In this document: positions 1,851 through 53,500 of the stretch, in pieces
Position numbering within the stretch: position 1 is the stretch's first letter
How the letters are laid out: each line of letters opens with the position of its first letter
DNA from: Macrostomum hystrix
Taxonomy: Eukaryota > Animalia > Platyhelminthes
DNA: 64,000 nucleotides
Direction of reading: 5' to 3'
Assembly (NCBI GenBank): GCA_950097015.1
Contig: CATNEN010000038.1
Coordinates: 28,086,001-28,150,000, forward strand
Program-made: the position numbers and the translations under genes
The notes under the pieces: generated by a model
Seen by the model: only the letters and a program-made list of their open reading frames with translations
Told to the model about the DNA's origin: nothing
The model's database searches: none

Positions 1851-2689
1851 TGACTTCAGCAAGCCATTATGAACTCAAATTAGTGAACTTTTAATTTCGA
1901 AATAAGGATTAGGAATGTAACCCAAATAGTTTTAGAGCAAAACGCAGCCATCTGGTCATAATTTTAAGGGAAAATTTATTCAAACGATGATGAGTTGCAC
2001 TCATTAGTTAAACGAGCAGCATTTCTGTGTGGGCCATTTCTCGATGACCATTTGAGTTGTAAAAGTTCAAAAATTAGGTCAGAATTATTTTGTTTGAGCT
2101 TGCGAAATGAATTATAAGCTAGGAAATTGAGAATGGCACTCAAAACTGTCGATGTAGCATCTGCTCATATATAATATTAGTATAACGTCAAGACCAACCG
2201 CAGGTCTTCACTTTGAGAAGCGAGACTCATTTAACACTGAGTTGAGCTAGCTTTTCATTCTAAAAATTTGACTGCCCGGCTGACTGCATGGAGTGTATAT
2301 TAGAGGAGATTTTGGGAATTGAAGACAGGCAGAAAACTGGGACAACAGGAAAACACAGGATGCACACACGCACGCACACAGATATTTCTGTTAATGGTCA
2401 TGGGCAATGAAATCGCAATGGGTAGTCTTAAGGCAGACACAAATTCAGCTAGGTATTCTTGACACGCTAAGCAAAAATGGGAAGCAACTGGTCAACGGAA
2501 ATTTCATCTGTTAAAAAAAGCGAACGAGGAAAGCTAAAAATCTTACTAATAGGAAGTAGGAAAATGTTTATGGCGATTTTATGGATTAAAAACGGGATTT
2601 CTAGTTTCATTGTTACATTTCATTGTTGCTTGTAGTCACCGGTCTGCCCCATTTTGAGTCTACTCTATTTGAGAAGATTTGAGTCGCTT

Positions 2690-11000: not shown

Positions 11001-13899
11001 TCAGATCCTTAATCTAGAACTTCAGATCCTGAATCTAGAACTTCAGATCCTGAATCTAGAACTCCATATCCTGAATCTAGAACTTCAGATCCTTAATCTA
11101 GAACTTCAGATCCTTAATCTAAAACTTCAGATCCTGAATCTAGAACTTCAGATCCTTAATCTAAAACTTCAGATCCTGAATCTAGAACTTCAGATCCTGA
11201 ATCTAGAACTCCATATCCTGAATCTAGAACTTCAGATCCTTAATCTAGAACTTCAGATCCTGAATCTAGAACTTCAGATCCTGAATCTAGAACTCCATAT
11301 CCTGAATCTAGAACTTCAGATCCTTAATCTAGAACTTCAGATCCTGAATCTAGAACTTCAGATCCTGAATCTAGAACTCCATATCCTGAATCTAGAACTT
11401 CAGATCCTTAATCTAGAACTTCAGATCCTTAATCTAAAACTTCAGATCCTGAATCTAGAACTTCAGATCCTTAATCTAAAACTTCAGATCCTGAATCTAG
11501 AACTTCAGATCCTTAATCTAGAACTTCAGATCCTTAATCTAGAACTTCAGATCCTTAATCTAAAACTTCAGATCCTGAATCTAGAACTTCAGATCCTTAA
11601 TCTAAAACTTCAGATCCTGAATCTAGAACTTCAGATCCTGAATCTAGAACTCCATATCCTGAATCTAGAACTTCAGATCCTTAATCTAGAACTTCAGATC
11701 CTGAATCTAGAACTTCAGATCCTGAATCTAGAACTCCATATCCTGAATCTAGAACTTCAGATCCTTAATCTAGAACTTCAGATCCTTAATCTAAAACTTC
11801 AGATCCTGAATCTAGAACTTCAGATCCTTAATCTAAAACTTCAGATCCTGAATCTAGAACTTCAGATCCTTAATCTAGAACTTCAGATCCTTAATCTAGA
11901 ACTTCAGATCCTGAATCTAGAACTTCAGATCCTGAATCTAGAACTCCATATCCCGAATCTAGAACTCCATATCCTGAATCTAAAACTTCAGATCCTGAAT
12001 CTAGAACTTCAGATCCCGAATCTAGAACTTCAGATCCTTAATCTAGAACTTCAGATCCTGAATCTAGAACTTCAGATCCTTAATCTAGAACCAACTTCAG
12101 ATCCTGAATCCAGAACTTCAGATCCTGAATCTAGAACCAACTTCAGATCCTGAATCCAGAACTTCAGATCCTTAATCTAGAACCAACTTCAGATCCTGAA
12201 TCCAGAACTTCAGATCCTGAATCTAGAACTTCAGATCCTGAATCTAGAACTTCAGATCCTGAATCTAGAACTTCAGATCCTTAATCTAGAACCAACTTCA
12301 GATCCTGAATCCAGAACTTCAGATCCTGAATCTAGAACTTCAGATCCTTAATCTAGAACCAACTTCAGATCCTGAATCCAGAACTTCAGATCCTGAATCT
12401 AGAACTTCAGATCCTGAATCTAGAACTTCAGATCCTGAATCTAGAACTTCAGATCCTGAATCTAGAACTTCAGATCCTGAATCTAGAACTTCAGATCCTG
12501 AATCTAGAACTTCAGATCCTTAATCTAGAACCAACTTCAGATCCTGAATCCAGAACTTCAGATCCTGAATCTAGAACTTCAGATCCTTAATCTAGAACCA
12601 ACTTCAGATCCTGAATCCAGAACTTCAGATCCTGAATCTAGAACTTCAGATCCTGAATCTAGAACTTCAGATCCTGAATCTAGAACTTCAGATCCTGAAT
12701 CTAGAACTTCAGATCCTTAATCTAGAACTTCAGATCCTTGATCTAGAACTTCAGATCCTTGATCTAGAACTTCAGATCCTTAATCAAAAACTTCAGATCC
12801 CAAATCTAAAACTACAGATCCTTAATCTATAACTTCAGATCCTGAATCTAGAACTTCAGATCCTGAATCTAGAACTTCAGATCCTGAATCTAGAACTTCA
12901 GATCCTGAATCCAGAACTTCAGATCCTGAATCTAGAACTTCAGATCCTGAATCTAGAACTTCAGATCCTGAATCTAGAACTTCAGATCCTGAATCTAGAA
13001 CTTCAGATCCTTAATCTAGAACTTCAGATCCTTGATCTAGAACTTCAGATCCTTGATCTAGAACTTCAGATCCTTAATCAAAAACTTCAGATCCCAAATC
13101 TAAAACTACAGATCCTTAATCTATAACTTCAGATCCTGAATCTAGAACTTCAGATCCTGAATCTAGAACTTCAGATCCTGAATCTAGAACTTCAGATCCT
13201 GAATCTAGAACATCAGATCCTTAATCTAGAACTTCAGATCCTGAATCTAGAACTTCAGATCCTGAATCTAGAACTTCAGATCCTGAATCTAGAACTTTAG
13301 ATCCTTAAAAAATCTAGAACTCCATATCCTGAATCTAGAACTCCAGATCCTTAATCTAGAACTTCAGATCCTTAATCTAAAACTTCAGATCCCAAATCTA
13401 AAACTTCAGATCCTGAATCTAGAACTTCAGATCCCAAATCTAAAACTTCAGATCCTGAATCTAGAACTTCAGATCCTTAATCTAGAACTTCAGATCGTGA
13501 ATCTAGAACTCCATATCCTGAATCTAAAACTTCAGATCCAGAATCTAAAACTTCAGATCCAGAATCTAGAACTTCAGATCCGAAATCTACAACTTCAGAT
13601 CCCGAATCTACAATTCAGATCCCAAATACTGAAAATGTGATTATCTTTATCTAGAAAGTTAGATCCTGAATATATGGAAACTATAAGAAGTTACAGATAT
13701 AATTCCTTTGTTGCCCCCAATAATGTAACTCGTTGCACTAATGAGAAGCAATAATTAAACTATCCGTTTTCTCTGCAAGTGTAGGTACCTACGTACTAGC
13801 ATAAAATTCTATCAGTTAGCCTAGCAACGAAATGATGCACACGACAGCGCATAGCTAGTCTACGTAAAGCCAATTAATTAGGAGACTAACTTGCTGCAT
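8016..13899 (-). CDS. TBC1D10: TBC-domain Rab GTPase-activating protein, TBC1D10/EPI64 family (~371 aa)
   Basis: Spliced complement(13891-13899 [MQQ, less certain], 9903-10265, 8802-9249, 8016-8311), all GT-AG and in phase. Motifs LDRYGF, RREKKWLDM, RKGIP..RPRAW, IERDLGRQFP (R-finger), GYCQAMAP (Q-finger), WFMCLY.RTLPW..LRVWD.YFCEGVK.IFRV match TBC1D10A/B. Confidence 0.9.
8378..8786. repeat. 16-bp intronic minisatellite (CGAACCCGAAACTCAT variants)
   Basis: Fills the last TBC1D10 intron. Confidence 0.93.
9421..9745 (-). mobile_element. tRNA-derived SINE, family A (copy 1)
   Basis: Minus strand has A-box TGGCAGAGCGG, B-box-like GAGCTCGATTCC and an (ATT)n tail; homologous to 56064-56340. Confidence 0.8.
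10287..13630. repeat. 21-bp intronic minisatellite (AGATCCTGAATCTAGAACTTC), ~3.3 kb
   Basis: Period 21 read directly; recurrent variants (CCAA insertion, CCATAT, TAAAA) form higher-order blocks. Confidence 0.97.
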
Positions 13900-19043: not shown

Positions 19044-22000
19044 ATGGCAAAAGCATATGACTACTTATTTAAGCTTTTATTAATTGGTGACAGTGGAGTT
19101 GGTAAAACCAGCGTACTCATTCGTTTTGCTGAAGATAGCTTCTCTCCTACTTTTATTTCTACTATTGGTAAGACTGTTATAACATTTCGTCTTTATTTTT
19201 CCACCATAAATTAAACATTTGAATTATGAAATTTTCTTTTTTGTAGCTTAGCTTGTCTCATATTTAATTAAAGTTTGTAACTCATCTTGGATTTTAGCTG
19301 TAGCTAAAATTGTTTTAGCAATTTGTTTTGTTTTGTCATTTTTGCTAGCCATTTGTTTTGTCTATTGACAATTTTTATGTATATATACTTAGGCCCCTAT
19401 TCATAAAAATCTAAGTATTTTATAAGCCTTGGCTTAGTGTTTAATTTTACTCCTATGTTATCTTTATGAATGTGGTCTGTCCTGCAACCCTAAGCATTGT
19501 ATTGTATATGCATTGAATTGTATTTACATTTGTATTAAATATTGAGTATTGACTCTTGGCAAAGACTCATAATTGTAACACAAGTTTAAGAATTAGACAA
19601 ATTTGTTTTATAATCTATTGTTTAGCCATAGTGCAAAAGGATAGGTATACTCTGGAAGTTTCTGTCATACATGAAGATTGCCTGTTGTACATGTTGTACA
19701 CAAAGAAAATGTTAGGGGTGCTTGTTGTACACTGTTGTACATTAAATTATGTCCACAGTTATGTTGTTCATATGTGAGTTAAGTTGTCATTGTTGTACAC
19801 AAAGTAAAGTTTGATTGTTAGTTGTTAGAATTTATCAGGAAACAAAATTGTAAAGTTTTTAACGTTACCTTTTTTATTAAATTTTCTATTCTCTTTAATA
19901 AAGAAAAAAAATATATAGGCCTAGCCTTAAAAGAAATCTTGCTTTGAATTTCCTTTTTTTGCATAGTAGTGCTTTCTGGAAGTTTTGTTTCACTGAGGAT
20001 CTTTCAAAGAGTTTCAAATCGGATTAGTCCGCTTTTTGTCCGTTTTTGTTGTACAACCATACATGCACAACACCTGGCCAAACCGGCCGGGTGAAACGAG
20101 GGTCAAGCAAGGTAAGTCGCAAAAACCAATAGACCAAGCGCAAAAAAATCAAAGGGGGGACCAAGGGACAAAAAAGGAAGGCGTGAAGAAAAGGAAAAAG
20201 GGGAGAGAAAAAGAGAGCAAACTAAGTCATAAATAGAGCAATGAAATGAACTAAGTCGCACGGCCGGCTAAGATTTGGGAGGTTGCACATGTATGTGTAC
20301 AACAGTACTTTGCTTATTTGATCCCTGTCGTACTGTCGTACAATAGTACTACACTTATTTGATCCCTGTCATATGGTAGTACAACAGAATGAAATAGAAA
20401 ATTACCTTCCATTGTACACAAAAATCCTTTTGCACTATGGTTGTTTAGATCATGTTAAAATGGATAGATAGAATTCTACAGTAATAATGTAAATATTTTT
20501 TGTTACTGAAATGTCTGTTACTCAATTGTAGGTTTCTGAACTGTCCTATATTCTTTTCAGCCACAGCTTAGTCTGGATAGATTAAAACTGTTTATATTAC
20601 TATTAAAAAGAAAGAGCTAATTAAAGTGGAAATGTGAGAAGTGCTAAAGCAGAAGTAATAGCAACTAGGTAGAAAATCTTGATTGTTTGAAATATTATGT
20701 TTCTGTTTTAGTCTAGATTGATTCCCAACATGGGAAAATTATTATGCACAACAATATCACAATGTGCAAAAAAGATGTGTGCTATGCTTATTTTTTAACA
20801 TTTATTTTTTTATGCATTAACAATATTTATCCAATTTGAAGTTAATTTTTAGCATTACTATTTTTATATTTATATAATTATTTGCTAAATAGAAAATCAG
20901 CACCTTTAAAGTGTGTGTAAAACAATAATAATAATACTAATAAATGATAACTTTACATTTCTCCTTTATTGTAGTCCATCCAATAACAAGTTTTTGTATT
21001 TGCTACTTGACAGTATAAGTTATTTAGAAAAATGTTTCATGAATTAGACATCATCCAGACTCTCTGTATAAAATGTATTCAAAATTAGGCAGCAAAAATT
21101 ATATGCATTGATCACCTAACAGTTTGATTTAGTCTAATGCAATGTTATTTCTTAATGAAATTCTAGGAATTGATTTCAAGATTCGCACCATTGAACTGGA
21201 TGGAAAGAAGGTCAAGCTGCAAATCTGGTAAGTTTCAGTTACAAAAAAACTTATAAAAACGAAGTAAAATAGTCACTAAGTGAACAGGTGTCGAGTTCAG
21301 TGTTCTAACTTGAGTTTGATCCAAGTCTCTGTAATTTACATTGTCACCAAATTACCAAAACTGTATAGAAACATTTTTTTATTCCACTTACCAAGTTACC
21401 ACTTATAAATAATATTAAGCGTCGTTTGTACCAATTTGCAGGGACACTGCTGGTCAGGAGCGCTTCCGAACAATTACTACAGCATACTACAGAGGCGCTA
21501 TGGGCATCTTACTAGTCTACGATGTGACCAATGCCAAATCTTTCGACAATATTCGCACCTGGATTAGCAACATTAATCAGCACGCTAATCCAGACGTTGA
21601 AAAAATGCTCATTGCTAATAAGTGCGACATGAATGATAGGCGGATGATACCAAAGGAAGTTGGCGAGAAGGTGAGACTTCAGATGTCATTAGCAGTGGGA
21701 GTATAAGACTGATTCACCTAAAAAACTCATATTTAAGTCCTCTTTTAAAACCTAATTCGAAAAACTATCAAATTCCTAATTACAAAACACTTAAAATCCT
21801 GATTCCGAGACACTTTCAGATCCCATTTTCCGAAAATCTGTCAAAATCTTAATTCCTAAGCGTTATTAAGAATCCCGTTTCTAGAACATTTATGGCTTTT
21901 AGATCCCAAATCAATATCTCTTTTCAGATCCCCATTCCAAAGCACTTTCCAGATCCCCATTCCAATGCACTTTCCAGATCCCTATTCCAGTGCACTTTCC

Positions 22001-22552
22001 AGATCCCTATTCCAGTGCACTTTCCAGATCTTTATTTCAGAGCACTTTCCAGATCCCTATTCCAGTGCACTTTCCAGATCCCCATTCCACTGAACTATTA
22101 CAAAGCACATTCAAGATCCCAATTTTTTGTCTCTTTAAAGATCCCGAATCCAAAACACTGTTCAGAGATTTCTATTTTAAACATACTTGCAACAATATTT
22201 ATATCAATATGGTATTTCCTTGTTAAACCGTATTTTAATCTTCATCTGTCGCCACAATATTACAACCACAATACATTTTTCTCATTCAAATGAAAACCTA
22301 ACCCCAACCCAGTTGGCTAACGAGCATCAGTTGCGCTTCATGGAGACGTCAGCCAAGTCCGGTATTAACGTTGAGGACGCCTTCTTAATTATGGCTCGGG
22401 ACATCAAAACGAAGTTAGATAGAAAAACGGACGGATCGAACGGCGCTGGCGGCGCGGCATCCGGTCCCGGCGGTAAATTGAAGAACGACGTCAAAGGCAA
22501 AGATTCAGGGGGTCGCGGAAGCAGCAGCAGATTCCGTTGCGACATTCTGTAG
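19044..22552 (+). CDS. Rab8: Ras-related protein Rab-8 (217 aa)
   Basis: join(19044-19167, 21167-21227, 21442-21670, 22313-22552), GT-AG, in phase. [65 protein letters not shown] and a C-terminal CaaX-type CDIL, all typical of Rab8. Confidence 0.96.
20058..20295. mobile_element. 238-bp hAT-like MITE in Rab8 intron 1
   Basis: TIRs CATACATGCACAAC / GTTGCACATGTATG; perfect 8-bp TSD TGTACAAC; second copy at 34653. Confidence 0.88.
21915..22090. repeat. 25-bp intronic minisatellite (TTCCAGATCCCTATTCCAGTGCACT)
   Basis: In Rab8 intron 3; seen directly. Confidence 0.85.
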
Positions 22553-22592: not shown

Positions 22593-23539
22593 CGTAGGGT
22601 GTCCCAGAAATAGCGGGGAAAATCGATGCACAGGCAAACTGGTGAAACATAGTTTATTGAAACTCACGTCACAGATAAATAAACATTCAGCAGTTCTAAC
22701 GCTTTTTTAATCAAGTAAATATGTCAATTCATTAAAAAGTTATGGCTAAAATTAGAACAAGGGGTAAGGGGTAGAGTTACACCAAGTCAAGGCCAGCGGA
22801 ATCGGTCACGCAGCATCACCATCGCCGTCGACTGACGACTTTTCGACGAAGTTCCGCCTTAGCTCGCAGCACTTAGTCCATCGCGTGAGAAGCGCATTGA
22901 TGGCATCTGCATTCACCCTTTGAATCAGTGCCTTTGTTGATGGAGAGATCGGACGGCCACGGTTGGCTGTGTCATCAACAACGTCTGTTCGCCCATGACT
23001 GAACTCTTCAAGCCAGCGATAGACAGCACTCTTCGAGATGGCACTCACTCCGTGGATTTCAGTCAGCTGGCTTACAATTTCACTGCCTCGCTTGCCCAAT
23101 TTCCATTGGGAGTACACGAACTGGCGCTGACCTTCTTTAGACGAAACGTTAAACAAGAACGATTGAACAAGGGAAAATGAAAAAAATCCAAACTCAACAG
23201 CGGCGTCTTGTCGAGGCGCACAAAATGTAGATATTCGCGATGTCTCGTGCTTGCTGTCTTTAGTGCCACGGGTATTTCTTGCGTCAGCTTCTGCTTCTTT
23301 TGATTCTGGTGCTCACGCTTCTCTGCTCGTCTGTTGCCTTTTTCTGCTTCTGTTCACTGATGCTTCGGCTCATTTTCTTCTGTCGCAAAAATTTTGTCTA
23401 AGGACATATTTACTTGATTAAAAAAGCGTTAGGAAGTCCTGCTGAATGTTTATTTATCTGTGACGTGAGTTTCAATAAAATATGTTTCACCAGTTTGCCT
23501 GTGCATCGATTTTCCCCGCTATTTCTGGGACACCCCTCG
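22593..23539 (-). mobile_element. Non-autonomous mariner derivative with ~135-bp TIRs, 947 bp, inserted 40 bp after the Rab8 stop codon
   Basis: TA|CGTAGGGTGTCCCAGAAATAG ... CTATTTCTGGGACACCCCTCG|TA; arms 22593-22725 and 23403-23539. ORF 22806-23156(-) keeps the first HTH (AVYRWLEEFSHGRTDV.D...GRP) fused to the C-terminal RWTKC..NFVEK. Confidence 0.93.
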
Positions 23540-27222: not shown

Positions 27223-28391
27223 TCAACCCGATATGGTGGAACTACGCGTTGAAAAGCAGCAAGCGCAGAGAGTCGGAGTCCTTCCTCCGTTTCCTCGTCG
27301 CCTTCCGAACTTATTAGACGCATGATCCACCTGGTCATGAGCAGTCATTGTGACGAATGCCGGGGACACCAGAACTGGACGAAATGCCAACTGAGCTAAC
27401 CGGGTCACGAGCTTCGTCTCTCTCTGACCATCAGGCTGCCACCTGAGCGAAGAACACTTCGTCATCAGATGCTTGGCGTCAGTCAGCTGACGGCCGCCGG
27501 AGCAGAGAGCGTCAGCGACCCTCCTAGCAGAAGACAGAGCGCTTCGATTTGAACAATCGGATTTCAATGCCAGCAGTAGGCAGGGCAGATTTGGTCGATG
27601 TCTAGTCAGCTCAGGCAGCCATCTGGTCAACAATCGATCAGCTGTGGATGCCTCGGCTGCAGAGCAGCACAGCAGGAAAGCGCCTGCGTCAGTGTAGAGA
27701 CGCGGCCTCAGCAGGTCCATGGCTTCGGAGCCGGGCGTGTCGTCAAGGCGAATGCGAACCTGCGTAAGCGCGTGCCTTTTTCAATGGGACAACACTCAAA
27801 CAAGCGGTATAAGGGTAAGGTATTGAAATAAAGTAATGATTCCGTAGTGACTTGCTAAAACGGCCCTTTTTAGGGCCATTGTTTGGCCTGCGGTTGCAGC
27901 TTCGAACTACGAGTAATATGGCCTCGTTGCAGATTCTAGCTCGGAACCTTCGTCACTGACGGCAATACAGTGCGCAGTAAAGCTAAGGGTTTTGACACCT
28001 GATTTAATTACTAGAAGTAGAAGACCAGAGGAAGGCTCACCTTTAAAGATACAGTTGACGATTTGTCTAAACCTGCATCAGCAGCAGCAGCTCCTGCTGG
28101 TAGGTCAACAAGCAGGGTAACGGAATCAGCCAGCACCCGACTATTGCTGTCATCGTCAGCAGCAACGGGGACTGGCGGTAGGCCAGCGATTGCTCTTAAC
28201 AATGACGACTTGCCAACACCGGAGTCGCCAACCAGTACGCAGCGAAGTGTAGCTACCGACGGGCAGACGTCTGACATACTGCCGCTTTTGTTATTATTAT
28301 TAATAATTTTAGAATAGTCGCAATGATTCGTAATCCTGTTATTATCAGTCTCTTGTTTTAGGTTTGCCACAACAGGCAATAATGCCTCCAT
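27223..28391 (-). CDS. Atypical Rho-family small GTPase (Rnd/RhoH-like features), ~295 aa
   Basis: complement(28041-28391, 27223-27759), phase-0 GT-AG intron. G1 RCVLVGDSGVGKSSLL, G3 LDDTPGSE, Rho signature LLRPRLYTDAGAFLLCCS, RWLPEL..H.PNLP.LLLALKSD (G4), KCSSL (G5). Confidence 0.82.
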
Positions 28392-29751
28392 TGTGCGTTC
28401 TATGCTGAGTGTGCAGTTTTTTATATAGTCTTTCTCTAACCAGTTGTAGTGGTTCTAGGCACAATCTAAACGCACTAGCACACACAATGCGCGAGAACTT
28501 TGGCTCGAGTTCGAAAACTGTACGAGTTGTTTGAGATTCAAGCTAAACGCCGCTCAGCATATATAACTCGAGCTTTGCAAAAAAAGACTATTTCTTCGCG
28601 CTATTTTATACATGCCTAAAAATCTTGCGGGGCTGGCTGGCCAAATGAGGAGGGGGTGACCCTCCCTCCCCTGAGAGGGTTTGTGAGGTGAGTAATCAAC
28701 CTTCCCACCCTCTAAACAAGCTATTTAACATCCACCCCAGCGCCTTCTAGGCAGGCCCCCAATTTAGCGCTGGTTTATTAATATAAGGGGCCGGTTTTTG
28801 GCATAGGCTGGGAAAGGAATTTTAAATAAATTCAGTGTACACTCAGACAGCAGAGCCCCAGACAACAGAGGGCGGCAATGTACATTCAATAAATTATTAG
28901 AGTGCCGTCCCGCTACAAACTATAGTATTCGTTTTTTCTAAACAGCCTACTGACAGTAACAGCATAACACCAGCTTCTCCAGCATGTAGGTAAGTACGCT
29001 TCAGAACCTTTGAAACAGGGGTCGGAAAACACGGGGTCACATAAAGCCAAGAAAATACTGGCCAAGACCTGGCCTTTTTAAACGCCACTTCCCCATTCTT
29101 ATCTCTCGGATCCTTGTGTCTCATCTCTACCCAGTCTCGCATCTCATAGCGTTATAAAATAAACTAGCAATAAAAGACAATTCACATCAAGATTATCATC
29201 GAAGTTAGTGTTCAGGAAAATAATGAAGCATGCCGAAATACCTGCTCGTTAATAAGCACGATGATAACAGAGGTCATATATACACTTATAAGCGCGTGAA
29301 ACATTGGTGCTTGTACATAATCAGTCGATTGTGAGTGTATTATAATTATAATTTACAAGTATAACGTTACTGCAGTTAATGGTATTTGCAAATTGATGTC
29401 ACTCGTGTGTGATATCAGAAAACACAACAAAAACTCCAGGTGTTACAATAAAATAACGAATGTAGCACTTTGTTACCAGTTAATTAAAATTCAAAGAATA
29501 AAATTTTATAGTGCGTGACATTGAAACAGATTTAACTTATTGACTTTTTTATTGAACAGATATTACAGTATTTTCGTATTACAATAAGTAATCTGCATAA
29601 ACAGAAAGGGTTAAAAAAGTTTCAAGCATCCCTTTGAAGCACAGATCAAATTTAAAAATATTATTGCCTATGTAAAGCAATGCCATGCAGAAGCTGCGAT
29701 TATACAAACAAAAACAGCATATGGACAACATCCACGGAAGCTAGTTTCAGG

Positions 29752-30491
29752 CATGGATGAATGAATAGAATGGATTGCTATTCTGGCACTGGCTATTTTC
29801 GCTTTTGACTCTTTTGCATCCGGTTCCCCCCCGTGCCTTTTCATTGGTTGATGATTGCCATGGACAATTTTCGGCCTTCGCTCCTTTCTTTCAATGCACA
29901 AGCGCAAAGAACTGAGAATGTCGGTTACTTGCAGAGATTATCGAGCGCTCGTTATGCTCTGGTTACTTGTTTGTCAATTGAAGTTGTTAATTGAAGCAGA
30001 GGAATGATAACAAATCCCCTGCAAATTACAACAGTAATGATTTCAGATTTTCATGTCGAGGGTGATGATGAGGGTGCGATGACAATGCTACAATAATGGA
30101 TTACTGGCGATGCTTTATCTGAATTTTACTATTGGAGTTATGAAATTGGTTTTAAAGTTCTATTTCAAAACAAGTAACTTCTATTTCGCCCAGAACTCTC
30201 CCGGCCTAAGTAGTAAGTTCAGTTTCATCATCGAGGGAGTACCTTTGTGTGTGCCCTTTTAGCAAGGACACACAGCATATAATAGCATCTAATAATAGAT
30301 GCTTTTATATAGAAGTCCTTGTCTTTTAGTAAGTTCTATTTCTTCAGCGACACATCAAAACTTGTGGTACATCAATTGTCTATGGCAATCATCAACCAAT
30401 GAAAAGGCACGGGGGGGAACCGGATGCAAAAGAGTCAAAAACTAAAATAGTTAGAGCCAGAATAGCAATCCATTCTATTCATTCATCCATG
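29752..30491. mobile_element. 740-bp non-autonomous DNA transposon with ~115-bp TIRs and 8-bp TSD (P-element- or hAT-like)
   Basis: GTTTCAGG|CATGGATGAATGAATAGAA ... TTCTATTCATTCATCCATG|GTTTCAGG; arms ~29752-29868 and ~30374-30491. Confidence 0.92.
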
Positions 30492-30780
30492 GTTTCAGGT
30501 CTCTTAGAGAAGCTAAAGAGAATGGCTAAATTGCTATCTAAAGCAAAGAAGAAACAAAAAATCTGCTTGATGAGTAAACTTCTGGCTGTATTCAAGCTTA
30601 GAGCAGCTCTCGAATTCGCATAGATATGCATACAGAAGGGTATTAAGCTGCTCTAATATCGAAAAAAAAATTGTGCGAAAAAAATGTTAGTACAGGGAAA
30701 ACAGGCTATTGCAGCCGACCTAGGTAAAAAAAACAACGCGCATTCACTACGAGAAACTACGACGAAAAACAGATAGAACT

Positions 30781-33700
30781 TCAAATTCCTAGGAAGTAGG
30801 AAACTCTATCGATCTTTGTAGCATCGGCTTTGCTTAGCCCTGCGCTACGAATCTGACTAATGATGTTAGAGCACATGTTTTTAAGGCGTTTCTCGTTATC
30901 TATTGTCAACGTTGAATACTTCAGGCAATCCGATAAAGACATTAATTCTACGATAAAGAATGCCACTTTTTCTGAACAAATTTTCACCGTTCGATTAGAA
31001 ATGTCTTCAAGCCAGATGTCCAGATAACTAGAATTCAGTTCGACACAGATTCTTCGAGCTTTGACAAATTTTCTGAAGTCGTTGAGCTTGAGAAATAGCA
31101 GCGCCTTTTCCGACGCTTTTAGTAGCTCAATAGCCTTGCATAGATAATTGTAGTCGCGACATCGACTGGCGGCTTTAAGAAAGGCAAATATCTCTTGAAC
31201 ATTTAGAAGACGATCTTCTTTTAGTTGATCCAGACGATTAAACCAGGGATCGAGATATGTTGAGTCCACTGAGGATAGTCGCTGCTTCATCTTCAGTAGC
31301 AACACAAAGTCTTGATAATGAAGCGTTTTCTCTGCGATTTCAGATGCACGAAGCACGGCATTATAGAGAAGCTGCGGAATCTCATTTGGAAGGATAGAAG
31401 CACAATACAAGGCAATAAACTCGACTGATTCAATGTTGTCGTTGAGCCATTTGCAAAACAGAGACTTGCTCTCCGAATCAAACGTTTTAACCAGACGTGG
31501 CAGAAAGTTACGGTCGAAAACGGCATTTTTGATGGCTTTATTTAATGCGTCAAGAATCTGTGGCAGATTGACAGCTCGTGAATCCCAATCGGCTGCTTTG
31601 CCGTTAAGGAGAAAATGATGGCACAGGTACACTTCAGAAAGTGGAGCCTTCTTAATTGGTAGGTCAGCTTCCCATGTTTTGCGAATGCTGCAGTCTTCAC
31701 CCAATAGAGTGTAAAATAAGCGCGACAAACAATTAAAATCAACAACTAAATCAACCGGATAGGTATTAGATCGAGTAATGCAATGCTTGTAGACTTCGCT
31801 ATTCAAGAAGTTGAAGTCCAAGAGCTGCATGGTGTCATAAGTGAAGGCGAAACACCAGGCCGTGTCAGTAGACTCGAGATCTTTTCTTAGACTAGCAACG
31901 CCGCGTTCCAGGTCTTCTTGGGCAATTTCGCGCATTGGCACTCGATACTGCGCACAGTGAAACTGGTGCTTTCGTAGTAGCTCAATCGCGGCCTGTTTGT
32001 CACCAAACTTCAAATGCGTCATAGTCTTAAGACATAGAGAGGCGGTAAAAGCACTAGGAGGTAGCGACTCAATGTGTCGAAGGAATTCGACCTTTTTGTC
32101 TGCTTTGAGCACCGTTAACTCTTGAAGACAATTCTGCAACCGCAAGTATAAATTTTCGGATTGAACCGACTTGTAAAACTGCAGCGTTAATCGAGTTGGA
32201 AATAAAACATAAGGATGAAATATCAGTCCTTCGTCTTCATGTGCCAATGGCCTGAGCATGTCAATGTAATCTTTTAAGTAGTCAATAATTTTCGACTTTG
32301 CTTTCTTAACGACTTCGATGAGAGAGACATGCGGAACATCGGAGTAGACCTTCTTGTGGAAATAGATATAGCAATCCCTAAGAATGAAACTTCGCATCGC
32401 CGCATGATAGCTTGACTCGTCCTTTCTAGTAGCCTCTCGTTCGCGCATCTCCTCTATTAGGATGTCGAAAGAATATAATAGCAGGCTCACAAGATTCTCT
32501 GCCTTCCAAACAGACTCATCAGACTGAAGACTTTGCAGAATGAAGAACAGTAGAGTTTTCGCATGGTAAGACTTAAACGCGTAGATGTCCTTATTGAACT
32601 TGATGGTGATGAAGTATTTGATCATAAGAAAAAAATGACCTTGAATGACACTCAGCGATCTGATTCGCCGTCGCTCAAATTCAGCGAAGCCGAATCTAAG
32701 CTCCGAGTTTTCATGACCAGGCCTCGAAGCCTGAATCAATTGCATCGGACTTTTAACTTGCTCAGGATCAAATAGAAGACCAACGTCTGCACAAAACAAA
32801 CTTTTCGGCGCGCTACAGCAGGGATAAGCGGTGCATTCGTCCACTTTTGGTCGCAGGCTGATGCCTTTGTGCGGCTCGGCTGGCTCGCGCAGTTCTGAAA
32901 CAGAATAGAAGTCAGTTTTAATTTCTAAATTTTCTAATTCCACCCACATAAACGATCACTTTACTTGACATTTAGTCAAGTAAGTTGCAACTTGTCTACT
33001 AGGAAGCTAAGTAAAAAGCAATATAGTACAAAGCAAAGGCTACCAATTAGAAAACTAATGAGATTTATTAGAGAAAGAAGTCGGACTCGAACTTTAAGGT
33101 CGGGGGTTCGATCTTCCGACTCCACTGGAACAATGTGCCTTTTTCCTTTAGCAATACACTAAAGGAAGTTGGGGTAATTGAGGGTGGGTGTGGCGTGCCC
33201 CAGTCCATGGAACTGAGTTACAGAAGGGAAACGACAAGGAGTTTAAGCAAGGCAACGAAGCTACTAAAATAGGAATTTTAACCTGCGCCTAAGAAGACAA
33301 CGCTATAATGACTTGTTTAAGAGTTGCTTGCAAGTTTGAGTTGCAAATTGGTACTTTAAAAATAATTAATAACCCAGCTTGTTATTGGTTAAGTTGCTGG
33401 GAGCAGAGAAGAATAACAGAACTCACGCTGAAATTTGAATGGAACATGGCCTTCTCTCACATCGTCCGCAGATAGCACGTAATCTTCGTCTCTATCGGGG
33501 CATTTGCAAGTGTCTTTGAAATGAAACATGGATTTGCGCATTAGGCAAGTCCAGTCCACGTCCGACTCGTGCTCATCGGTTCTGCCATCAAATGTGAACA
33601 GATTGTTGCCCCAGACATCGCCATAGCTTCCAGCGATGCGCCATTCGTACTTATCTTCGTCGTAAAGTTTTCTGTACAGATCTTCAATGTAGTCAACGAG

Positions 33701-33808
33701 TCGAGCCTGAAGAAAAATTCTTTTCTTAGTAAACCCGGCCCGGCATAACGCTTGATGCAGATGAATACTGAACTTCTGCTCCTCTTCAGTGGGCTGCGGA
33801 ATTGGCAT
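30781..33808 (-). CDS. Mab-21/cGAS-like nucleotidyltransferase (cGLR) with long C-terminal helical region, ~831 aa
   Basis: complement(33427-33808, 30781-32894); phase-1 intron CAG C|GTGAGT...TTTCAG|AA joins in frame. NTase motifs IAGSY...ESDVD and KVDECTAYPC; Mab-21 motifs LRFGFAEFERR, FLMIKY, FKSYHAKTLLFF, W..ENL. Confidence 0.82.
33093..33215 (+). mobile_element. Partial tRNA-derived SINE, family B
   Basis: GGTCGGGGGTTCGATC B-box, CCTTTAGCAATACACT and GGGTGTGGCGTGCCCCAGTCCATGGA are shared with the 59073 copy. Confidence 0.7.
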
Positions 33809-34034
33809 TTCACCTTACTCGACTATGCCTATCCGAACCCTGCAAGCAAGATCGCTGAATGGCACTACATTGATACTGGTCAGGACATGGCCAGGCTGAA
33901 AATTTTAGTACATAGAATATGATTAAATTTACATTTTAACAACAAACTGCAAGTTGTTGGTGAATAAGTTGCTATTTTAATTATTGTTCAATTGGTGAGG
34001 CTTGTCCTAATTATTATTCAAATGTTTTATTTAA

Positions 34035-42800: not shown

Positions 42801-45800
42801 CTCACCTGGTCATTAAGACTCATCTCACCTTTTCATTAAGAATCATCTCAGCTTTACATTAAGACTCATCTTACCTGGTCATAAACACTCATCTCACCAG
42901 GTCATAAAGACTATTTTACCTAGTTGTTAAGTTTCTCCTACTTCTTCATACAAGTTGTTTCGTTTCAAGCTGCTATTAATTTTATTTGTTCATGTTCATC
43001 TACTCGCGGTAGTACAATGCGCATGCGCATGCCTGAACATGCTATCCCCAACTATCTATTAATACATTAGGTTCGCATTCTCCGTGCCGCTAAGCGCGAA
43101 GGCCTTATCCGTGCCCGCCTGATGGGAGCCCGCAAGGCCACAGGCACTGTGCTGACATTCTTGGATTCGCACTGCGAATGTGCCGCCGGTTGGTTGGAGC
43201 CGCTGCTGTTTAGAATTGCCCAGAATTCAACCCATGTTGTAACGCCAACTATTGAAGTTATTAGCGACAGCACGTTGGCAATGTCGACTGCCACAAATTT
43301 AGATTCGATGAGTGTCGGCGGTTTCGACTGGAATTTGCAATTCAATTGGCACTTGGCGCCTGAGAGAGATAGAAAAAATCGGCTTAGCAGAATCGACCCG
43401 GTGCGTAGTCCCACAATGGCCGGCGGCCTGTTCTCAATCGATAGGGAATATTTCGCTCACCTGGGCAGCTACGATCCCGGCTTCGACATCTGGGGCGGGG
43501 AGAATCTTGAGATTAGTTTCAAAATTTGGATGTGCGGTGGCACACTGGAGATTGTGCCCTGTTCCATTGTGGGCCATATCTTTAGGAAACGCTCGCCATA
43601 TAGCTGGGGCACCGGCGGCGTTTTGAAAAAGAACTCCGTTCGATTAGCCGACGTCTGGATGGACCAATACGCCGACATTTATTACGAGAGGGTCGGAGGA
43701 AAGGTGAGTTTTTTTGAAGCTTTGGATCTGATATTATCCCTATCGCTTTCATAAATCTCTTACTACGTTTTGATCTCTAAATATCTTTAAATCATTTTCT
43801 TATCCCCTTAGGTGTGTCAATTTTTATCCCAATCTTACCCCCCCTGGAAGAATCTATTTTTATCCCAATCTTATCCCCTTAGATGTGTCTGTTGTTATCC
43901 CAATCTTATCTCTTTGGGTGTGTCTATTATTATCCCTATCTTATCCCCTTGGAAGTATCTATTATTATCCCAATCTTATCCCCTTGGATGTGTCTATTAT
44001 TATCCCAATCTTATCCCCTTGGAAGTATCTATTATTATCCCAATCTTATCACCTTGGAAGTATCTATTATTATTATTCCAATCTTATCCCCTTGGATGTG
44101 TCTATTGTTATCCCAATCCCATTATGTGTGTATTGTTTTCCTAATCCCATTATGTGTGTCTATTGTTATCCCAATCCCATTATGTGTGTATTTTTATCCC
44201 AATCCCATGATGTGTGTATTGTTATCCCAATCCCATTATGTGTGTATTGTTTTCCCAATCCCATTATGTGTGTCTATTGTTATCCCAATCCCATTATATG
44301 TGTATTGTTATCCCAATCCCATTATGTGTGTATTGTTATCCAAATCTTGTCCCATCGGATGTGTCTAGTTTTACTTGAATCTTATCCCCTTGGATGTGTC
44401 TATTTTTACCCAAATCTTATCCCTTGGATGTGTCTATTGTTACCCAAATCTTATCCCCTTGGGTGCGTCTATGGTTACCCAAATCTTATCCCCTTGGGTG
44501 CGTCTATGATTACCCAAATCTTATCCCCTTGGGTGCGTCTATGGTTACCCAAATCTTATCCCCTTGGGTGCGTCTATGGTTACCCAAATCTTATCCCCTT
44601 GGGTGCGTCTATGATTACCCAAATCTTATCCCCTTGGGTGCGTCTATGATTACCCAAATCTTATCCCCTTGGGTGCGTCTATGGTTACCCAAATCTTATC
44701 CCCTTGGGTGCGTCTATGGTTACCCAAATCTTATCCCCTTGGGTGCGTCTATGGTTACCCAAATCTTATCCCCTTGGGTGCGTCTATGATTACCCAAATC
44801 TTATCCCCTTGGGTGCGTCTATGGTTACTCAAATCTTATCCCCTTGGGTGCGTCTATGATTACCCAAATCTTATCCCCTTGGGTGCGTCTATGGTTACCC
44901 AAATCTTATCCCCTTGGGTGCGTCTATGGTTACTCAAATCTTATCCCCTTGGGTGCGTCTATGGTTACCCAAATCTTATCCCCTTGGGTGCGTCTATGGT
45001 TACTCAAATCTTATCCCCTTGGGTGCGTCTATGATTACCCAAATCTTATCCCCTTGGGTGCGTCTATGGTTACCCAAATCTTATCCGCTTGGGTGCGTCT
45101 ATGGTTACCCAAATCTTATCCGCTTGGGTGTGTCTAATGTTATCCCTATTCCTATCCCTATTTTATCCTAGTCTCATCTCCTTTAGATTATTTGTATCCG
45201 AGTTAGTTTTGGCTTTCATTCAAACCAGTTTTTTTCAGCAGATGCAATCTGGTTCTGGTGGTTTCGCTGGTTCTATCCAGTTTTCTTTCTATATCGTACG
45301 TATTTGATAATTTTACACCTCTCGTCTCTACTCTCAGACTAATATCACTAACAATGTAAGCAAACCATTGATCCACGTGCTTTTAAAGTCACCTTGCTCT
45401 CTAGTCTTTGTGATCTTTTTTTTAAAAAAAAAACTGAATTCAGTCACACGTTGGCATTTGTTTCAAAAGCATCCACATCTAGATTGATACACATTTTATG
45501 TGTTAGTCAGATTGTGAGAGAATTAGTACTGGTTTTTTCCTGCTACACCTGAGAGGTTTTCATTATTAGACTGTCCAAAGCAAACTCCGTGTCTCATCGA
45601 CTCACCCATCCATCCATTGATAACAAATTTGTCTATTAGTCCATCAATCAGTCGATCATTAAAACTAATAAATGCTTTCTTACATTCATCCATCAATCCG
45701 TTAATCTATCAATCCATCTATCAATCTATAAATCGACCCATCCATCCATTATTCCATCCACCCATTAATCCATCCATCTACCCATCCACCCATTATTAAA

Positions 45801-47237
45801 CCCACCCATTAATCCATCAATCCATCCATTCATCCATTCATCCATCTATCCATCTATCTATCTACTCATCCATCCATCTATCAATCCATCCATCCATCTA
45901 TCCATCTATCCATCGATCCACTAATCAATCCATGCATCCATTCATTTATCCATCCATCCATCCATCCATCTATTCATCTATCCATCCACCAATCCATCTA
46001 TCCATCCATCCATCCATCTATTCATCTATCCATCCACCAATCCATCTATCCATCCATCAATCCATCAATCCATCTATCAATCCATCGATCCACTAATCAA
46101 TCCATGCATCCATGCATTTATCCATCCATCCATCCATCCATCTATCCATCCACCAATCCATCAATCCATCCATCAATCCATCAATCCATCTATCAATCCA
46201 TCCATCCATCTATCAATCCATCCATCCACCAATCAATCCATGCATCTATCCATCTATCCATCTATCCATCTATCCATCGATCCACTAATCAATCCATGCA
46301 TCCATTCATTTATCCATCCATCCATCTATCCATCCATCCATCAATCCATCAATCCATCTATCAATCCATCCATGCATCTATCATCTATCCATTGATCCAC
46401 TAATCAATCCATGCATCCATCCATTTATCCATCCATCCATCCATCCATCCATCCACCAATCAATCCATCCATCCATCCATCCATCCATCCATCTATCCAT
46501 CCATCCATCTATCTATCCACCAATCCATCTATCCATCCATCCATCAATCCATCCATCAATGCATTCATTAATTCATGAATCTATCCTGTCAATCCATCAG
46601 CCGTTAATCCATGTTTTCACTCATTCATCAATCCATCAATATCTGCATCCACCTACGCATCAATAAATATATGCTTCCATCCCATAACAGTTTTCATCCC
46701 ATTGTTTCGTATCTCCAGGGAGACTACGGTGACGTGTCGGAGCGGAAAGCGCTCCGTAGTCGTCTTGGATGTCGCAGCTTCCAATGGTTCTTGGACACCA
46801 TCTATCCCGAGCTGTTCCTACCCAATGATGCTCTGGCTCGCGGTGCCATCATGAATGCCGCTGTGCCTTACTGCATTGACGCTCTAGTTAAGCATCACGA
46901 ATCCGGGCAGACCAACGTGAAACTCTGGCCTTGCCACGGCCAGGGCGGGAATCAGTTTTGGTTGCTTTCTAAGCAGGGCGAAATTCGGCGCGACGAAGGC
47001 TGCGTAGATTATCCCGGCGGCGACAATGTGATTGTGTACAATTGTCACGGCGGTAGGGGCAATCAGGAGTGGCAATATCGCAGCGATGATACTATTTATC
47101 ATCCGTTGCGAAATCTCTGCCTAGAAGCGGCGCCGGGCAATAAACTGGCCATGACCGCCTGTAGAAAGAATTTTGACAGACAGAAATGGAAATGGAACAG
47201 GCAGGCCGGTCGCCAGCGATTCGGAGACAAGCTGTGA
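39807..47237 (+). CDS. GALNT: Polypeptide N-acetylgalactosaminyltransferase (GT27, ~666 aa)
   Basis: join(39807-40058, 40879-41273, 41607-41808, 43071-43703, 46719-47237), all GT-AG and in phase. Type II TM anchor, [34 protein letters not shown] (DxH), [13 protein letters not shown], and a ricin-type lectin with CHG.GGNQ repeats. Confidence 0.96.
40113..40253 (-). mobile_element. Internally deleted SINE family B copy (tRNA head joined to 3' tail)
   Basis: Minus strand GAGGTTGTAACC..GTGGTTAGAGCGTC..GGGGTTCGATTCCTGAC, then GGACAGGTGTGATCAATTATT. Confidence 0.75.
41858..42915. repeat. 23-bp intronic minisatellite (CATCTCACCTGGTCATAAAGACT)
   Basis: Period 23; GALNT intron 3. Confidence 0.96.
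43797..45165. repeat. 35-bp intronic minisatellite (CCCAAATCTTATCCCCTTGGGTGCGTCTATGGTTA) with shorter variant blocks
   Basis: GALNT intron 4; seen directly. Confidence 0.95.
45600..46620. repeat. (TCCA)n compound microsatellite
   Basis: GALNT intron 4. Confidence 0.95.
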
Positions 47238-50566: not shown

Positions 50567-53500
50567 ATGACCAGCCTACTAGATCTGTCCCAGCTGACGG
50601 CGCGAACAGACCGAGCTAGCCTGGTTCGCGCCCCGGTGCCAGCCTCGCCCTACGTTACGGACAATGTTCGGACGGCTAACAGCGCCAGGCAGGCGTTAAT
50701 CGAGGCCCGCAAGAAGCGTGTACTACTGCAAGCTGTTGCAGCTATGCAGGACATCGAGAGACTGGCTGCGCAACGTGAGTCGACTTTTTATTAGCCCCTT
50801 TAAAGGAAATTTCCTGGGATGTTTTATGTAAGCTTTGTATGTCAATGAATTCTTTAAGCGATTACTCCCATGGTTGGACCAATTGCTTACGATTCCTTTA
50901 CGAGCGTAAAATATCTTTTTTCTGGTCCTTTGTTTAAGAATTTGTTCTTTAGTTCTTACTTATAACGAATTGATTCTTTGGTCCTTTAAGTAGGTTCTCT
51001 ATAGTCCTACAAAAATTCTCTCCGGTCCTTCAAAGTTCACCTCCCTAATCCTTCAAGAAGGTTCTCTCCGGTCCTTCAAGGTTCACTTCCCTGATCCTTC
51101 AAGAAGGTTCTCTCCGGTCCTTCAAGAAGGTTCTCTCCGGTCCTTCAAAGTTCACTTCCCTGATCCTTCAAGAAGGTTCTCTCTTGTCGTTCAAGAAGGT
51201 TCTCTCCGGTCTTTCAAGAAGGTTCTCTCCGGTCTTTCAAGAAGGTTCTCTCCGATCCTTCAAGAAGGTTCTCTCCGGTCCTTCAAGGTTCACTTCTTTG
51301 ATCCTTCAAGAAGGTTCTCTCTTGTCGTTCAAGAAGGTTCTCTCTTGTCGTTCAAGAAGGTTCTCTCTTGTCGTTCAAGAAGGTTCTCTCTTGTCGTTCA
51401 AGAAGGTTCTCTCCAGTCCTTCAAGAAGGTTCTCTCCGGTCCTTCAAGGTTCACTTCTTTGATCCTTCAAGAAGGTTCTCTCTTGTCGTTCAAGAAGGTT
51501 CTCTCCGGTCTTTCAAGAAGGTTCTCTCCGGTCTTTCAAGAAGGTTCTCTCCGATCCTTCAAGAAGGTTCTCTCCGGTCCTTCAAGGTTCACTTCTTTGA
51601 TCCTTCAAGAAGGTTCTCTCTTGTCGTTCAAGAAGGTTCTCTCTTGTCGTTCAAGAAGGTTCTCTCTTGTCGTTCAAGAAGGTTCTCTCTTGTCGTTCAA
51701 GAAGGTTCTCTCCAGTCCTTCAAGAAGGTTCTCTCCGGTCCTTCAAGGTTCACTTCTTTGATCCTTCAAGAAGGTTCTCTCTTGTCGTTCAAGAAGGTTC
51801 TCTCTTGTCGTTCAAGAAGGTTCTCTCCGGTCTTTCAAGAAGGTTCTCTCTTGTCGTTCAAGAAGGTTCTCTCCGGTCTTTCAAGAAGGTTCTCTCCGAT
51901 CCTTCAAGAAGGTTCTCTCCGATCCTTCAAGAAGGTTCTCTCCGGTCTTTCAAGAAGGTTCTCTCCGATCCTTCAAGAAGGTTCTCTCCGATCCTTCAAG
52001 AAGGTTCTCTCCGGTCTTTCAAGAAGGTTCTCTCTTGTCGTTCAAGAAGGTTCTCTCTTGTCGTTCAAGAAGGTTCTCTCTTGTCGTTCAAGAAGGTTCT
52101 CTCCAGTCCTTCAAGAAGGTTCTCTCCGGTCCTTCAAGGTTCACTTCTTTGATCCTTCAAGAAGGTTCTCTCTTGTCGTTCAAGAAGGTTCTCTCCGGTC
52201 TTTCAAGAAGGTTCTCTCCGGTCTTTCAAGAAGGTTCTCTCCGATCCTTCAAGAAGGTTCTCTCCGATCCTTCAAGAAGGTTCTCTCCGGTCTTTCAAGA
52301 AGGTTCTCTCCGATCCTTCAAGAAGGTTCTCTCCGGTCTTTCAAGAAGGTTCTCTCCGGTCTTTCAAGAAGGTTCTCTCCGGTCTTTCAAGAAGGTTCTC
52401 TCCGGTCTTTCAAGAAGGTTCTCTCCGATCCTTCAAGAAGGTTCTCTCCGGTCTTTCAAGAAGGTTCTCTCCGGTCTTTCAAGAAGGTTCTCTCCGATCC
52501 TTCAAGAAGGTTCTCTCCGGTCTTTCAAGAAGGTTCTCTCCGGTCTTTCAAGAAGGTTCTCTCCGGTCTTTCAAGAAGGTTCTCTCCGGTCTTTCAAGAA
52601 GGTTCTCTCCGATCCTTCAAGAAGGTTCTCTCCGGTCTTTCAAGAAGGTTCTCTCCGGTCTTTCAAGAAGGTTCTCTCCGATCTTTCAAGAAGGTTCTCT
52701 CCGGTCTTTCAAGAAGGTTCTCTCCGATCCTTCAAGAAGGTTCTCTCCGGTCTTTCAAGGTTCAGTTCCCTGATCCTTCAAGAAGGTTCTCTCTTGTCCT
52801 TCAAGTAGCTTCTCTCCGATCCTTCAAGAAGGTTCTCTCCGGTCTTTCAAGAAGGTTCTCTCCGGTCCTTCAATAATGTCTTTGGTCCTTCAAATAGGTT
52901 CTGATCCTCCAAAACAATCGGTTGTATTTTTTCTAAATGACTTGGCTTGCTTAGTATTATTAATTAAAATCTCAATTGCCTTGATTATCACAGCCGACTC
53001 GCTAAAGTACATTGAGGAGCACAAAGTCCATCGTGACATCATCGACTGCCTCAAGGAGTTCCAGCCAAGCGAGCGGACCGACACGGAGTCCGCCCAGAGA
53101 CTGCAGTGCGCTGCTTATTCGGCGCTTCTTGTACTCAGCGGCCGGACTCAAAAGCTGCGAACTTCCATTCAGATTAATCAGGATTTGCTGTGAGTAAAAA
53201 ATGTTCTCATCAGTTTTGCTGCATCGGGAATAAGATTGAACACAAAATTTCGGTCAAATTTACCAAATCCCTATAATGCATCAGAATCAACGTCAGTCAA
53301 TCACAATCGATTCAATTACATTACTTGTAATCGATCCTATCCAATCACGATCGATCCTATTCAATCACAATCGATACTATCCAATCACGATCGACCCTAT
53401 TCAATCACAATTGATACTATCCAATCACAATCGATCCTATTCAATCACAATCGATTCCATCCAATAACAATCGATCCTATTCAATCACAATCGATCCTAT

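What the first reader, a model, noticed from the sequence alone, without database searches (positions are those of the whole stretch)
30781..33808. cGAS-like receptor (Mab-21 NTase) with apparently intact catalytic motifs, split across two ORFs
Seen: the two ORFs join through a phase-1 GT-AG intron into ~831 aa. Exon 1 supplies GS plus DxD (IAGSY...ESDVD). Exon 2 supplies a candidate third acidic residue (KVDECTAYPC) and the Mab-21 C-lobe (RFGFAEFE, KSYHAKT). Established: animal cGLRs are nucleic-acid-activated cyclic-dinucleotide synthases related to cGAS and bacterial CD-NTases. Inference: this is a candidate active innate-immune second-messenger enzyme with an unusually long GS-to-DxD loop (~21 aa). 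No STING gene is visible in the window, so the effector is unknown.
Basis: partly seen in the sequence, partly recalled or inferred. Interest (0 to 1): 0.8.

Follow-up and report, generated by a model that had tools for sequence, protein, structure and literature searches.

The report
Divergent flatworm cGAS-like receptor gene
This is a real, spliced two-exon gene of a likely Macrostomum flatworm whose protein keeps the catalytic residues of cGAS-like immune enzymes and belongs to a worm family already catalogued in 2023; it is predicted, not shown, to make a nucleotide alarm signal, likely in response to something other than long DNA or RNA.

Summary
Observation confirmed. The two minus-strand ORFs join across a 532-nt phase-1 GT-AG intron into 831 aa. 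Contigs of 7 public runs from 2 studies show this junction, and 3 carry the Macrostomum spliced leader. The protein belongs to a large Macrostomum lignano cGLR family, mostly ankyrin-fused. G60, S61, D83, D85, D146, K220 and SYHxK match family-conserved columns. A modelled relative has the cGAS fold (Z 20.6). The loop is not unusual: 21 residues against 20 in 55 of 56 relatives. Li et al. 2023 already list 10 M. lignano members and screened 5; none is marked among their 15 active enzymes. This copy is atypical: no ankyrins, an extra ~270-aa predicted alpha-solenoid, near-neutral charge (domain pI 6.3), and changes at conserved pocket positions (Ser to Gly at 196). Activity, ligand and STING presence are untested. 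New variant of a known kind; interest 0.4.

The parts
33809..33895 (-). 5' leader downstream of a trans-splice acceptor (AG at 33897-33896). The spliced leader's terminal AUG would open a 27-codon upstream ORF, in frame with the CDS, that stops at TAA 33817-33815.
   Evidence: Loose 5' ends at 33896 in 3 of the 4 runs laid (the fourth does not reach this end) match the 3' end of the published M. lignano SL; that sequence is absent from the window; uORF translation.
33427..33808 (-). Exon 1, aa 1-127: spine helix, GS (G60/S61, 33631-33626), DxD (D83 33562-33560, D85 33556-33554) and a conserved H96-x4-C101-x-C103...H121 cluster
32895..33426 (-). Phase-1 GT-AG intron, 532 nt, holding a likely tRNA-derived repeat near 33090-33211
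   Evidence: skip of 532 nt in 4 of 4 runs
32257..32894 (-). Exon 2, aa 128-340: third acidic residue D146 (32841-32839), R194/G196, K220, S236-Y237-H238-x-K240 and the Mab-21 helical C-lobe
   Evidence: Pfam Mab-21_C at 24.1 bits, equal to its cut-off; the model of this stretch aligns to mouse cGAS with Z 11.7, rmsd 3.3, 184 residues
31597..32256 (-). Exon 2, aa 341-560: mostly helical domain shared with many family members
   Evidence: BLAST matches of many relatives run to aa ~480-550; secondary structure of the model
30781..31596 (-). Exon 2, aa 561-831 plus stop: predicted HEAT/TPR-like alpha-solenoid, shared only with the closest M. lignano proteins (P0001 and its 92%-identical copy P0080)
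   Evidence: (generic solenoid matches, best Z 12.9, rmsd 4.7, 295 aligned)
30464..30780 (-). 3' untranslated region as far as contigs reach; it ends inside an inverted-repeat arm, and the poly(A) site was not determined
   Evidence: 2,907-nt contig covering 30464-33896 without mismatches; inverted repeat 30374-30491

Best explanation
The gene makes a spliced, SL-trans-spliced mRNA for an 831-aa cGAS-like receptor that is predicted to be a ligand-gated nucleotide-signal synthase, likely switched on by a trigger other than long dsDNA or dsRNA. Shown: gene structure, transcript, family membership, and the residues G60/S61, D83, D85, D146, R194, K220, Y237 and K240. Inferred from cGAS enzymology: the three aspartates would hold two metal ions and join two NTPs into a cyclic dinucleotide once the two lobes close. 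Inferred from anatomy: the C-terminal helical and solenoid regions would take the sensing or partner-binding role that ankyrin repeats likely have in its paralogues, and Gly196 in place of the conserved Ser may change the product. The receiver of the signal is unknown, and STING was not tested.
For: Junction and SL in contigs. Among 59 relative domains: G60 57, S61 58, D83 56, D85 54, D146 52, K220 59, Y237 58, K240 58; all eight are kept together in 47 of 59. The relative P0003 (110 of 310 aligned residues identical over aa 1-340) models at pLDDT 90.7 and matches human cGAS at Z 20.6, rmsd 3.6, 269 residues. Among 48,161 representatives cGLR/cGAS chains rank first, ahead of CD-NTases, MiD49, OAS1 and TENT2. 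The window's catalytic residues map onto its strands. Li et al. accepted this family as cGLRs (Table S1). Domain pI is 6.3 and the full protein 7.25; the paper ties pI above 8.5 to DNA/RNA sensing and proposes non-nucleic-acid ligands for acidic cGLRs.
Against: There are no activity data. The window protein keeps only 41 of 55 strongly conserved columns, among the lowest six of 60 rows, and has the longest end branch (2.67, quick tree). It differs at G65V, H179Q, S196G, Q214H, K224T and H296S (family residue first). By eye, the 15 active enzymes of Table S3 have Ser (12), Cys (2) or Thr (1) at the 196 position and none has Gly. Five M. lignano members were screened and none is marked active (Fig. 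S3 could not be read). Both closest M. lignano proteins are annotated without the catalytic half. The joined protein itself was not modelled, so convergence of its three aspartates is inferred from a relative. pI is a crude proxy and was computed with a different algorithm from the paper's.
Confidence: 0.45

Rival explanations
1. A catalytically weak or dead cGLR that binds nucleotide or partner proteins as a scaffold or regulator, as MAB21L1 or MiD49/51 are thought to (their roles recalled, not from a call).
For: Low retention of conserved columns and a long branch. The two closest M. lignano proteins start at the equivalent of M294 and keep 41-73% identity per 60-residue block over the C-terminal part. 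No screened relative is marked active.
Against: All three aspartates, GS, K220 and SYHxK are kept despite about 70% divergence from paralogues. The short M. lignano models start at an internal, family-conserved Met and may be annotation truncations. The paper attributes many inactive screens to unknown ligands.
Confidence: 0.25
2. A classical nucleic-acid sensor: long dsRNA or dsDNA activates it, it makes cGAMP or a related dinucleotide, and STING responds.
For: This is the commonest behaviour among characterised cGLRs (9 of 15). The fold is cGAS-like. The C-terminal solenoid is mildly basic (pI 8.7).
Against: Domain pI 6.3. Five relatives screened with pooled nucleic acids were not taken forward. 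STING is reported absent in Schmidtea, Schistosoma and six tapeworms; Macrostomum is not covered by those sources.
Confidence: 0.2
3. An active nucleotidyltransferase with another product: a linear oligonucleotide, or NMP transfer to a protein or RNA held by the solenoid.
For: Changed pocket residues. The same fold family includes OAS, TENT and CD-NTase enzymes at Z 10-15.
Against: cGLR/cGAS structures outrank these (Z 17-20), and a sequence profile hits only cGLR1/cGAS chains below E 0.01 (15 of 16 hits).
Confidence: 0.1

Closest known systems
Macrostomum lignano cGLRs listed by Li et al. 2023 (PMC9980059 Table S1; e.g. PAA68676.1, PAA93208.1, PAA45980.1, PAA57558.1)
   Same: Same family: GS-x20-DxD, RPxxD..CC, R-h-S..E, QG..K, K[ST]YHAKT and the following helical domain; about 25-31% identity to family members over ~500 aa.
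   Different: No N-terminal ankyrins (31 of 42 scanned relatives have Pfam ankyrin hits), an extra ~270-aa solenoid, one extra loop residue and several pocket substitutions.
M. lignano BOX15_Mlig015042g1 / Mlig005902g1 (PAA72365.1, PAA77612.1)
   Same: 55% identity over aa 294-829, the only proteins found that share the whole C-terminal region; likely orthologues.
   Different: Annotated at 532 aa without the NTase lobe; PAA72365 is not in the Li et al. tables.
cGAS and invertebrate cGLRs (human and mouse cGAS, Cv-cGLR1 8gjw, Sp-cGLR1 8gjy, Tc-cGLR 7lt2, MB21D2 7lt1)
   Same: Caged two-lobe NTase fold, Z 16-20.6 for the modelled relative; five key catalytic positions as in human G212, S213, E225, D227, D319 (PMC4117786).
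   Different: 13-18% identity, a longer GS-DxD spacer, near-neutral charge, ~490 extra C-terminal residues, and Gly where the cGAS S378-type residue is expected (mapping by eye and recall).
Bacterial CD-NTases, OAS, TENT/TUTases, MiD49, MAB21L1
   Same: Same superfamily fold (Z 10-16).
   Different: They rank below cGLR/cGAS; the gene is a spliced animal gene with no operon context; M. lignano has a separate true Mab21-like gene (PAA76228.1).

Membership tests
cGLR (Li et al. 2023 criteria) | Catalytic residues GS, [DE]h[DE] and third [DE] present in order and spacing | tested here: met
   G60 S61, D83 V84 D85 W86, D146 with a 58-residue spacer, all on family-conserved columns.
cGLR (Li et al. 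2023 criteria) | Literal motif h[QT]GS X8-20 [DE]h[DE]h X50-90 h[DE]h | tested here: inconclusive
   The strict pattern fails (Ala before GS, spacer 21, Glu after D146), but it also fits only 6 of 59 relatives, while a relaxed one fits the window and 55 of 59. The authors listed relatives with such departures.
cGLR (Li et al. 2023 criteria) | Homology across both the NTase core and the C-terminal helix bundle | tested here: met
   The family profile covers aa 7-366 at 277 bits; Mab-21_C at its cut-off; a profile that includes both window exons hits Sp-cGLR1 and cGAS helix bundles.
cGLR (Li et al. 2023 criteria) | Predicted structural homology to cGLR/CD-NTase | tested here: met
   Relative P0003: Z 20.6 to human cGAS and 19.8 to Cv-cGLR1. 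The window's own exon-2 part: Z 11.7 to mouse cGAS. The exon-1 half of the window protein was not modelled.
cGLR (functional) | Synthesises a cyclic nucleotide second messenger | not testable with these tools
   Needs biochemistry.
Nucleic-acid-sensing cGLR | High pI (above 8.5) and a basic ligand groove | tested here: not met
   pI 6.3 for aa 1-340 and 7.25 for the full length against the paper's threshold; surface charge was not mapped.
cGLR-STING pathway | STING encoded in the same genome | not testable with these tools
   No genome is held; Table S5 has no M. lignano row.
Macrostomum ANK-cGLR architecture | N-terminal ankyrin repeats | tested here: not met
   The SL is joined 87 nt before the ATG with an in-frame stop between; 0 of 168 tblastn matches of 97 relatives fall outside the gene.
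Mab21L1/2 developmental proteins | Near-invariant Mab21L sequence | tested here: not met
   None of the 28 hits named as M. lignano proteins is the separate Mab21-like gene PAA76228.1, whose sequence is plainly different.

The most novel reading that the evidence does not exclude
Macrostomum runs a STING-independent cGLR system. Dozens of cGLRs with ankyrin or solenoid sensing modules make nucleotide signals in a phylum where STING is reported lost. This near-neutral, ankyrin-less enzyme with Gly at the base-selecting position makes a non-standard product after a protein or other non-nucleic-acid trigger, and the signal is read by a new receptor, possibly the cGLR-ankyrin-caspase paralogues whose DxD has become DxN.
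Probability: 0.15. Interest if true: 0.8.

Novelty: new variant of a known kind. Interest (0 to 1): 0.4.

Why it matters
Animal cGLR signalling is known to act through STING, and most flatworms are reported to lack both. Macrostomum is the exception, with a large cGLR family, and it is a lab worm with genetic tools (recalled). An expressed member with a correct gene model, an intact triad and an unusual sensing tail is a concrete reagent for two open questions: what activates cGLRs that do not respond to nucleic acids, and whether animals read cGLR signals without STING. On its own it is one more orphan cGLR.

Tried and rejected
Genome-wide search for paralogues and STING: no genome is held. 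Exon 1 alone found no Pfam family, no NCBIfam family and no longer relative in the word-based search (0 of 59 candidates at E up to 10), which is weak evidence. A single-sequence PDB search with exon 2 gave only unrelated weak hits. The ESM Atlas gave no usable hit for the C-terminal region, which shows neither novelty nor absence. Foldseek on the exon-2 model gave only generic TPR/HEAT solenoids. No listed run is on record as RNA; the transcript reading rests on the missing intron and the SL. P0059 (a bee repeat protein) was dropped as a spurious hit; 59 domains from the 67 hits passed the coverage filter for the alignment. The careful tree did not finish; only the quick tree was seen and the window's position in it is unsupported. 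A profile search returned 22 proteins: 19 M. lignano, 2 unnamed JGI and 1 partial MAG protein on contigs of 1-1.7 kb, with no other named animal; it is limited by shared words and by lengths of 69-1145 aa. Literature: 'cGLR + Platyhelminthes' gave 3 papers and 'Macrostomum + cGAS + STING' gave 3 (one checked by passages, two seen as listings only); searches showed no study of Macrostomum cGLRs or STING beyond the Li et al. tables. Culbertson and Levin supplements have no Macrostomum text hit. A source for the base-selecting role of the S378-type residue was not found; that role is recalled. Earlier scan findings: none. Rejected: pseudogene or two separate genes (spliced contigs), bacterial CD-NTase contamination (intron, SL, animal neighbours), and an unusual loop as the novelty. 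No complex prediction was run, since the splice already shows that the halves are one chain.

Full report
Gene structure. The window is eukaryotic and no genome is held. On the minus strand, ORFs at 33808-33389 and 32949-30781 join through GTGAGT at 33426 and TTTCAG at 32895: 382 + 2114 nt, 831 aa, phase 1. Other frame-keeping GT-AG pairs exist, but public contigs fix this one. A 532-nt skip appears in 4 of 4 runs laid, and exon 1 runs on into exon 2 in 4 of 4 runs of a second set; together these are 7 runs from 2 studies. One 2,907-nt contig covers 30464-33896 minus the intron with no mismatches. The runs are not on record as RNA and one may be the source sample.

Trans-splicing and organism. 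At 33896 three contigs carry 10-23 loose bases that match the 3' end of the 35-nt M. lignano spliced leader (PMC8629364, passages) and do not occur in the window. The mRNA is therefore SL-trans-spliced 87 nt before the ATG. The leader's AUG would give a 27-codon upstream ORF ending two codons before the start, so no N-terminal extension can be encoded by this mRNA. The SL and the protein relatives point to a Macrostomum-type flatworm. At 55% identity to the closest M. lignano protein it is likely another species.

Family. A search of 1.84 billion representatives with exon-2 aa 1-280 gave 67 hits. Names were seen for 30: 28 M. lignano, 1 unnamed metagenome protein and 1 spurious bee protein. 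Some clusters are near-identical gene models, so the gene count is dozens rather than exactly 67. Of 42 scanned, 31 have ankyrin hits; three proteins in two clusters add a caspase domain. The spliced protein aligns with many of them from about residue 5 to 480-550, straight across the junction. A profile without the window protein scores exon 1 at 101.7 bits against at most 5.2 for 200 shuffles. No second copy or ankyrin remnant lies in the window.

Active site. In 59 relative domains the conserved columns are G60 (57), S61 (58), D83 (56), D85 (54), D146 (52), R194 (57), E201 (58), K220 (59), Y237 (58) and K240 (58), all kept by the window protein. The GS-to-DxD spacer is 20 in 55 of 56 relatives and 21 here; the published range is 8-20 (PMC9980059, section 5). 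Against a simple 'intact' reading, the protein keeps 41 of 55 strongly conserved columns and has the longest end branch, with Val65 for Gly (55 of 59), Gln179 for His (54), Gly196 for Ser (57), His214 for Gln (53), Thr224 for Lys (58) and Ser296 for His (51). Position 196 corresponds, by eye and recall, to human cGAS S378, listed among the cGAMP-binding residues (PMC4117786, passages). A conserved His-Cys-Cys-His cluster (96, 101, 103, 121) may bind a metal; this is inference.

Fold. The spliced chain was not modelled. Its motif-closest relative P0003 was folded with a 46-sequence alignment (pLDDT 90.7). It matches human cGAS at Z 20.6 (rmsd 3.6, 269 residues), and among 48,161 representatives cGLR, cGAS and MB21D2 come first (Z 17-20), then MAB21L1 and Tc-cGLR (16), CdnC (15), MiD49 (14.6), OAS1 (12.2) and TENT2 (11.8). 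Window residues map one to one onto its catalytic strands. The window's own exon-2 product (pLDDT 76.2) matches the cGAS C-lobe at Z 11.7 and ends in an alpha-solenoid (aa ~561-831) with only generic HEAT/TPR matches. That tail is shared only with P0001 and its 92%-identical copy P0080, both annotated without the NTase half.

Mechanism. Most likely (0.45) it is a ligand-gated cyclic-nucleotide synthase whose trigger is not long dsDNA or dsRNA: the domain pI is 6.3, while nucleic-acid-sensing cGLRs exceed 8.5, and the helical tail offers a protein-binding surface. Rivals are a weak or dead scaffold (0.25), a classical nucleic-acid-to-STING sensor (0.2) and another NTase product (0.1). Gene, transcript and residues are shown; the fold is predicted; catalysis, ligand, product and receiver are inferred.

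What is known. Li et al. 2023 (PMC9980059: sections 5 and 6, passages, and searches of Tables S1, S3, S5) state that most flatworms have no cGLR beyond Mab21-like proteins. Their Table S1 has 11 M. lignano accessions, 9 of this family and one Mab21-like protein clearly shown among them plus PAA45980.1, which is in a cluster found here: 10 family rows in all. Table S3 shows 5 screened with no active label; the figure with the raw screen could not be read and bears on this point. Table S5 gives 0 cGLR and 0 STING for six tapeworms and has no M. lignano row. Schmidtea lacks recognisable cGAS and STING (PMC13563047, passages), as does Schistosoma. The likely orthologue and two caspase-fused paralogues are not in the Li et al. 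tables.

Verdict. The finding is real and correctly identified, but it is a divergent member of a catalogued family. The new elements are the architecture (no ankyrins, long solenoid tail), the pocket changes and the confirmed gene model. The larger open question, whether Macrostomum cGLRs signal without STING, could not be tested here. Interest 0.4.

Noticed in passing
P0027, P0087, P0055 (M. lignano PAA59752.1, PAA80948.1, PAA93319.1): cGLR-ankyrin-caspase fusions. In P0027 and P0055 the second aspartate of DxD is Asn and the third acid is also lost; the caspase of P0027/P0087 keeps SHG and QAC motifs. They could be receptor-effector or decoy forms. They are not in the Li et al. tables.
   Followed up: partly
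window 33815-33895 (-): The spliced leader's AUG opens a 27-codon uORF that stops two codons before the main ATG, a possible translational brake.
   Followed up: partly
window 33090-33211: A tRNA-like repeat (likely a SINE) inside the intron, with many contigs carrying loose ends.
   Followed up: no
window 29752-29869 and 30374-30491: A 118-nt inverted repeat, 95% complementary, MITE-like; the gene's 3' end runs into one arm.
   Followed up: no
window 21419-22552 (+) and 27223-28454 (-): Exons of a Rab-like GTPase (+) and a Rho/Ras-like GTPase (-) downstream of the gene; the subfamily labels are by eye.
   Followed up: no
window 43122-47237 (+), 8713-9102 (-), 4658-5407 (+), 22806-23312 (-): Glycosyltransferase-2 plus ricin-type lectin exons (likely a GalNAc transferase), a RabGAP-TBC exon, and Tc1/mariner-like transposase pieces.
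   Followed up: no
window 7-1852, 10286-13622, 50980-52902 and others: Dense minisatellites, for example a 21-bp unit in 157 copies.
   Followed up: no
P0092, P0034, P0094: Family members on 1-1.7 kb metagenome contigs, one labelled as a Kangiellaceae MAG protein; likely worm DNA in the assemblies.
   Followed up: no
P0002: An M. lignano model with two cGLR domains in one chain.
   Followed up: no
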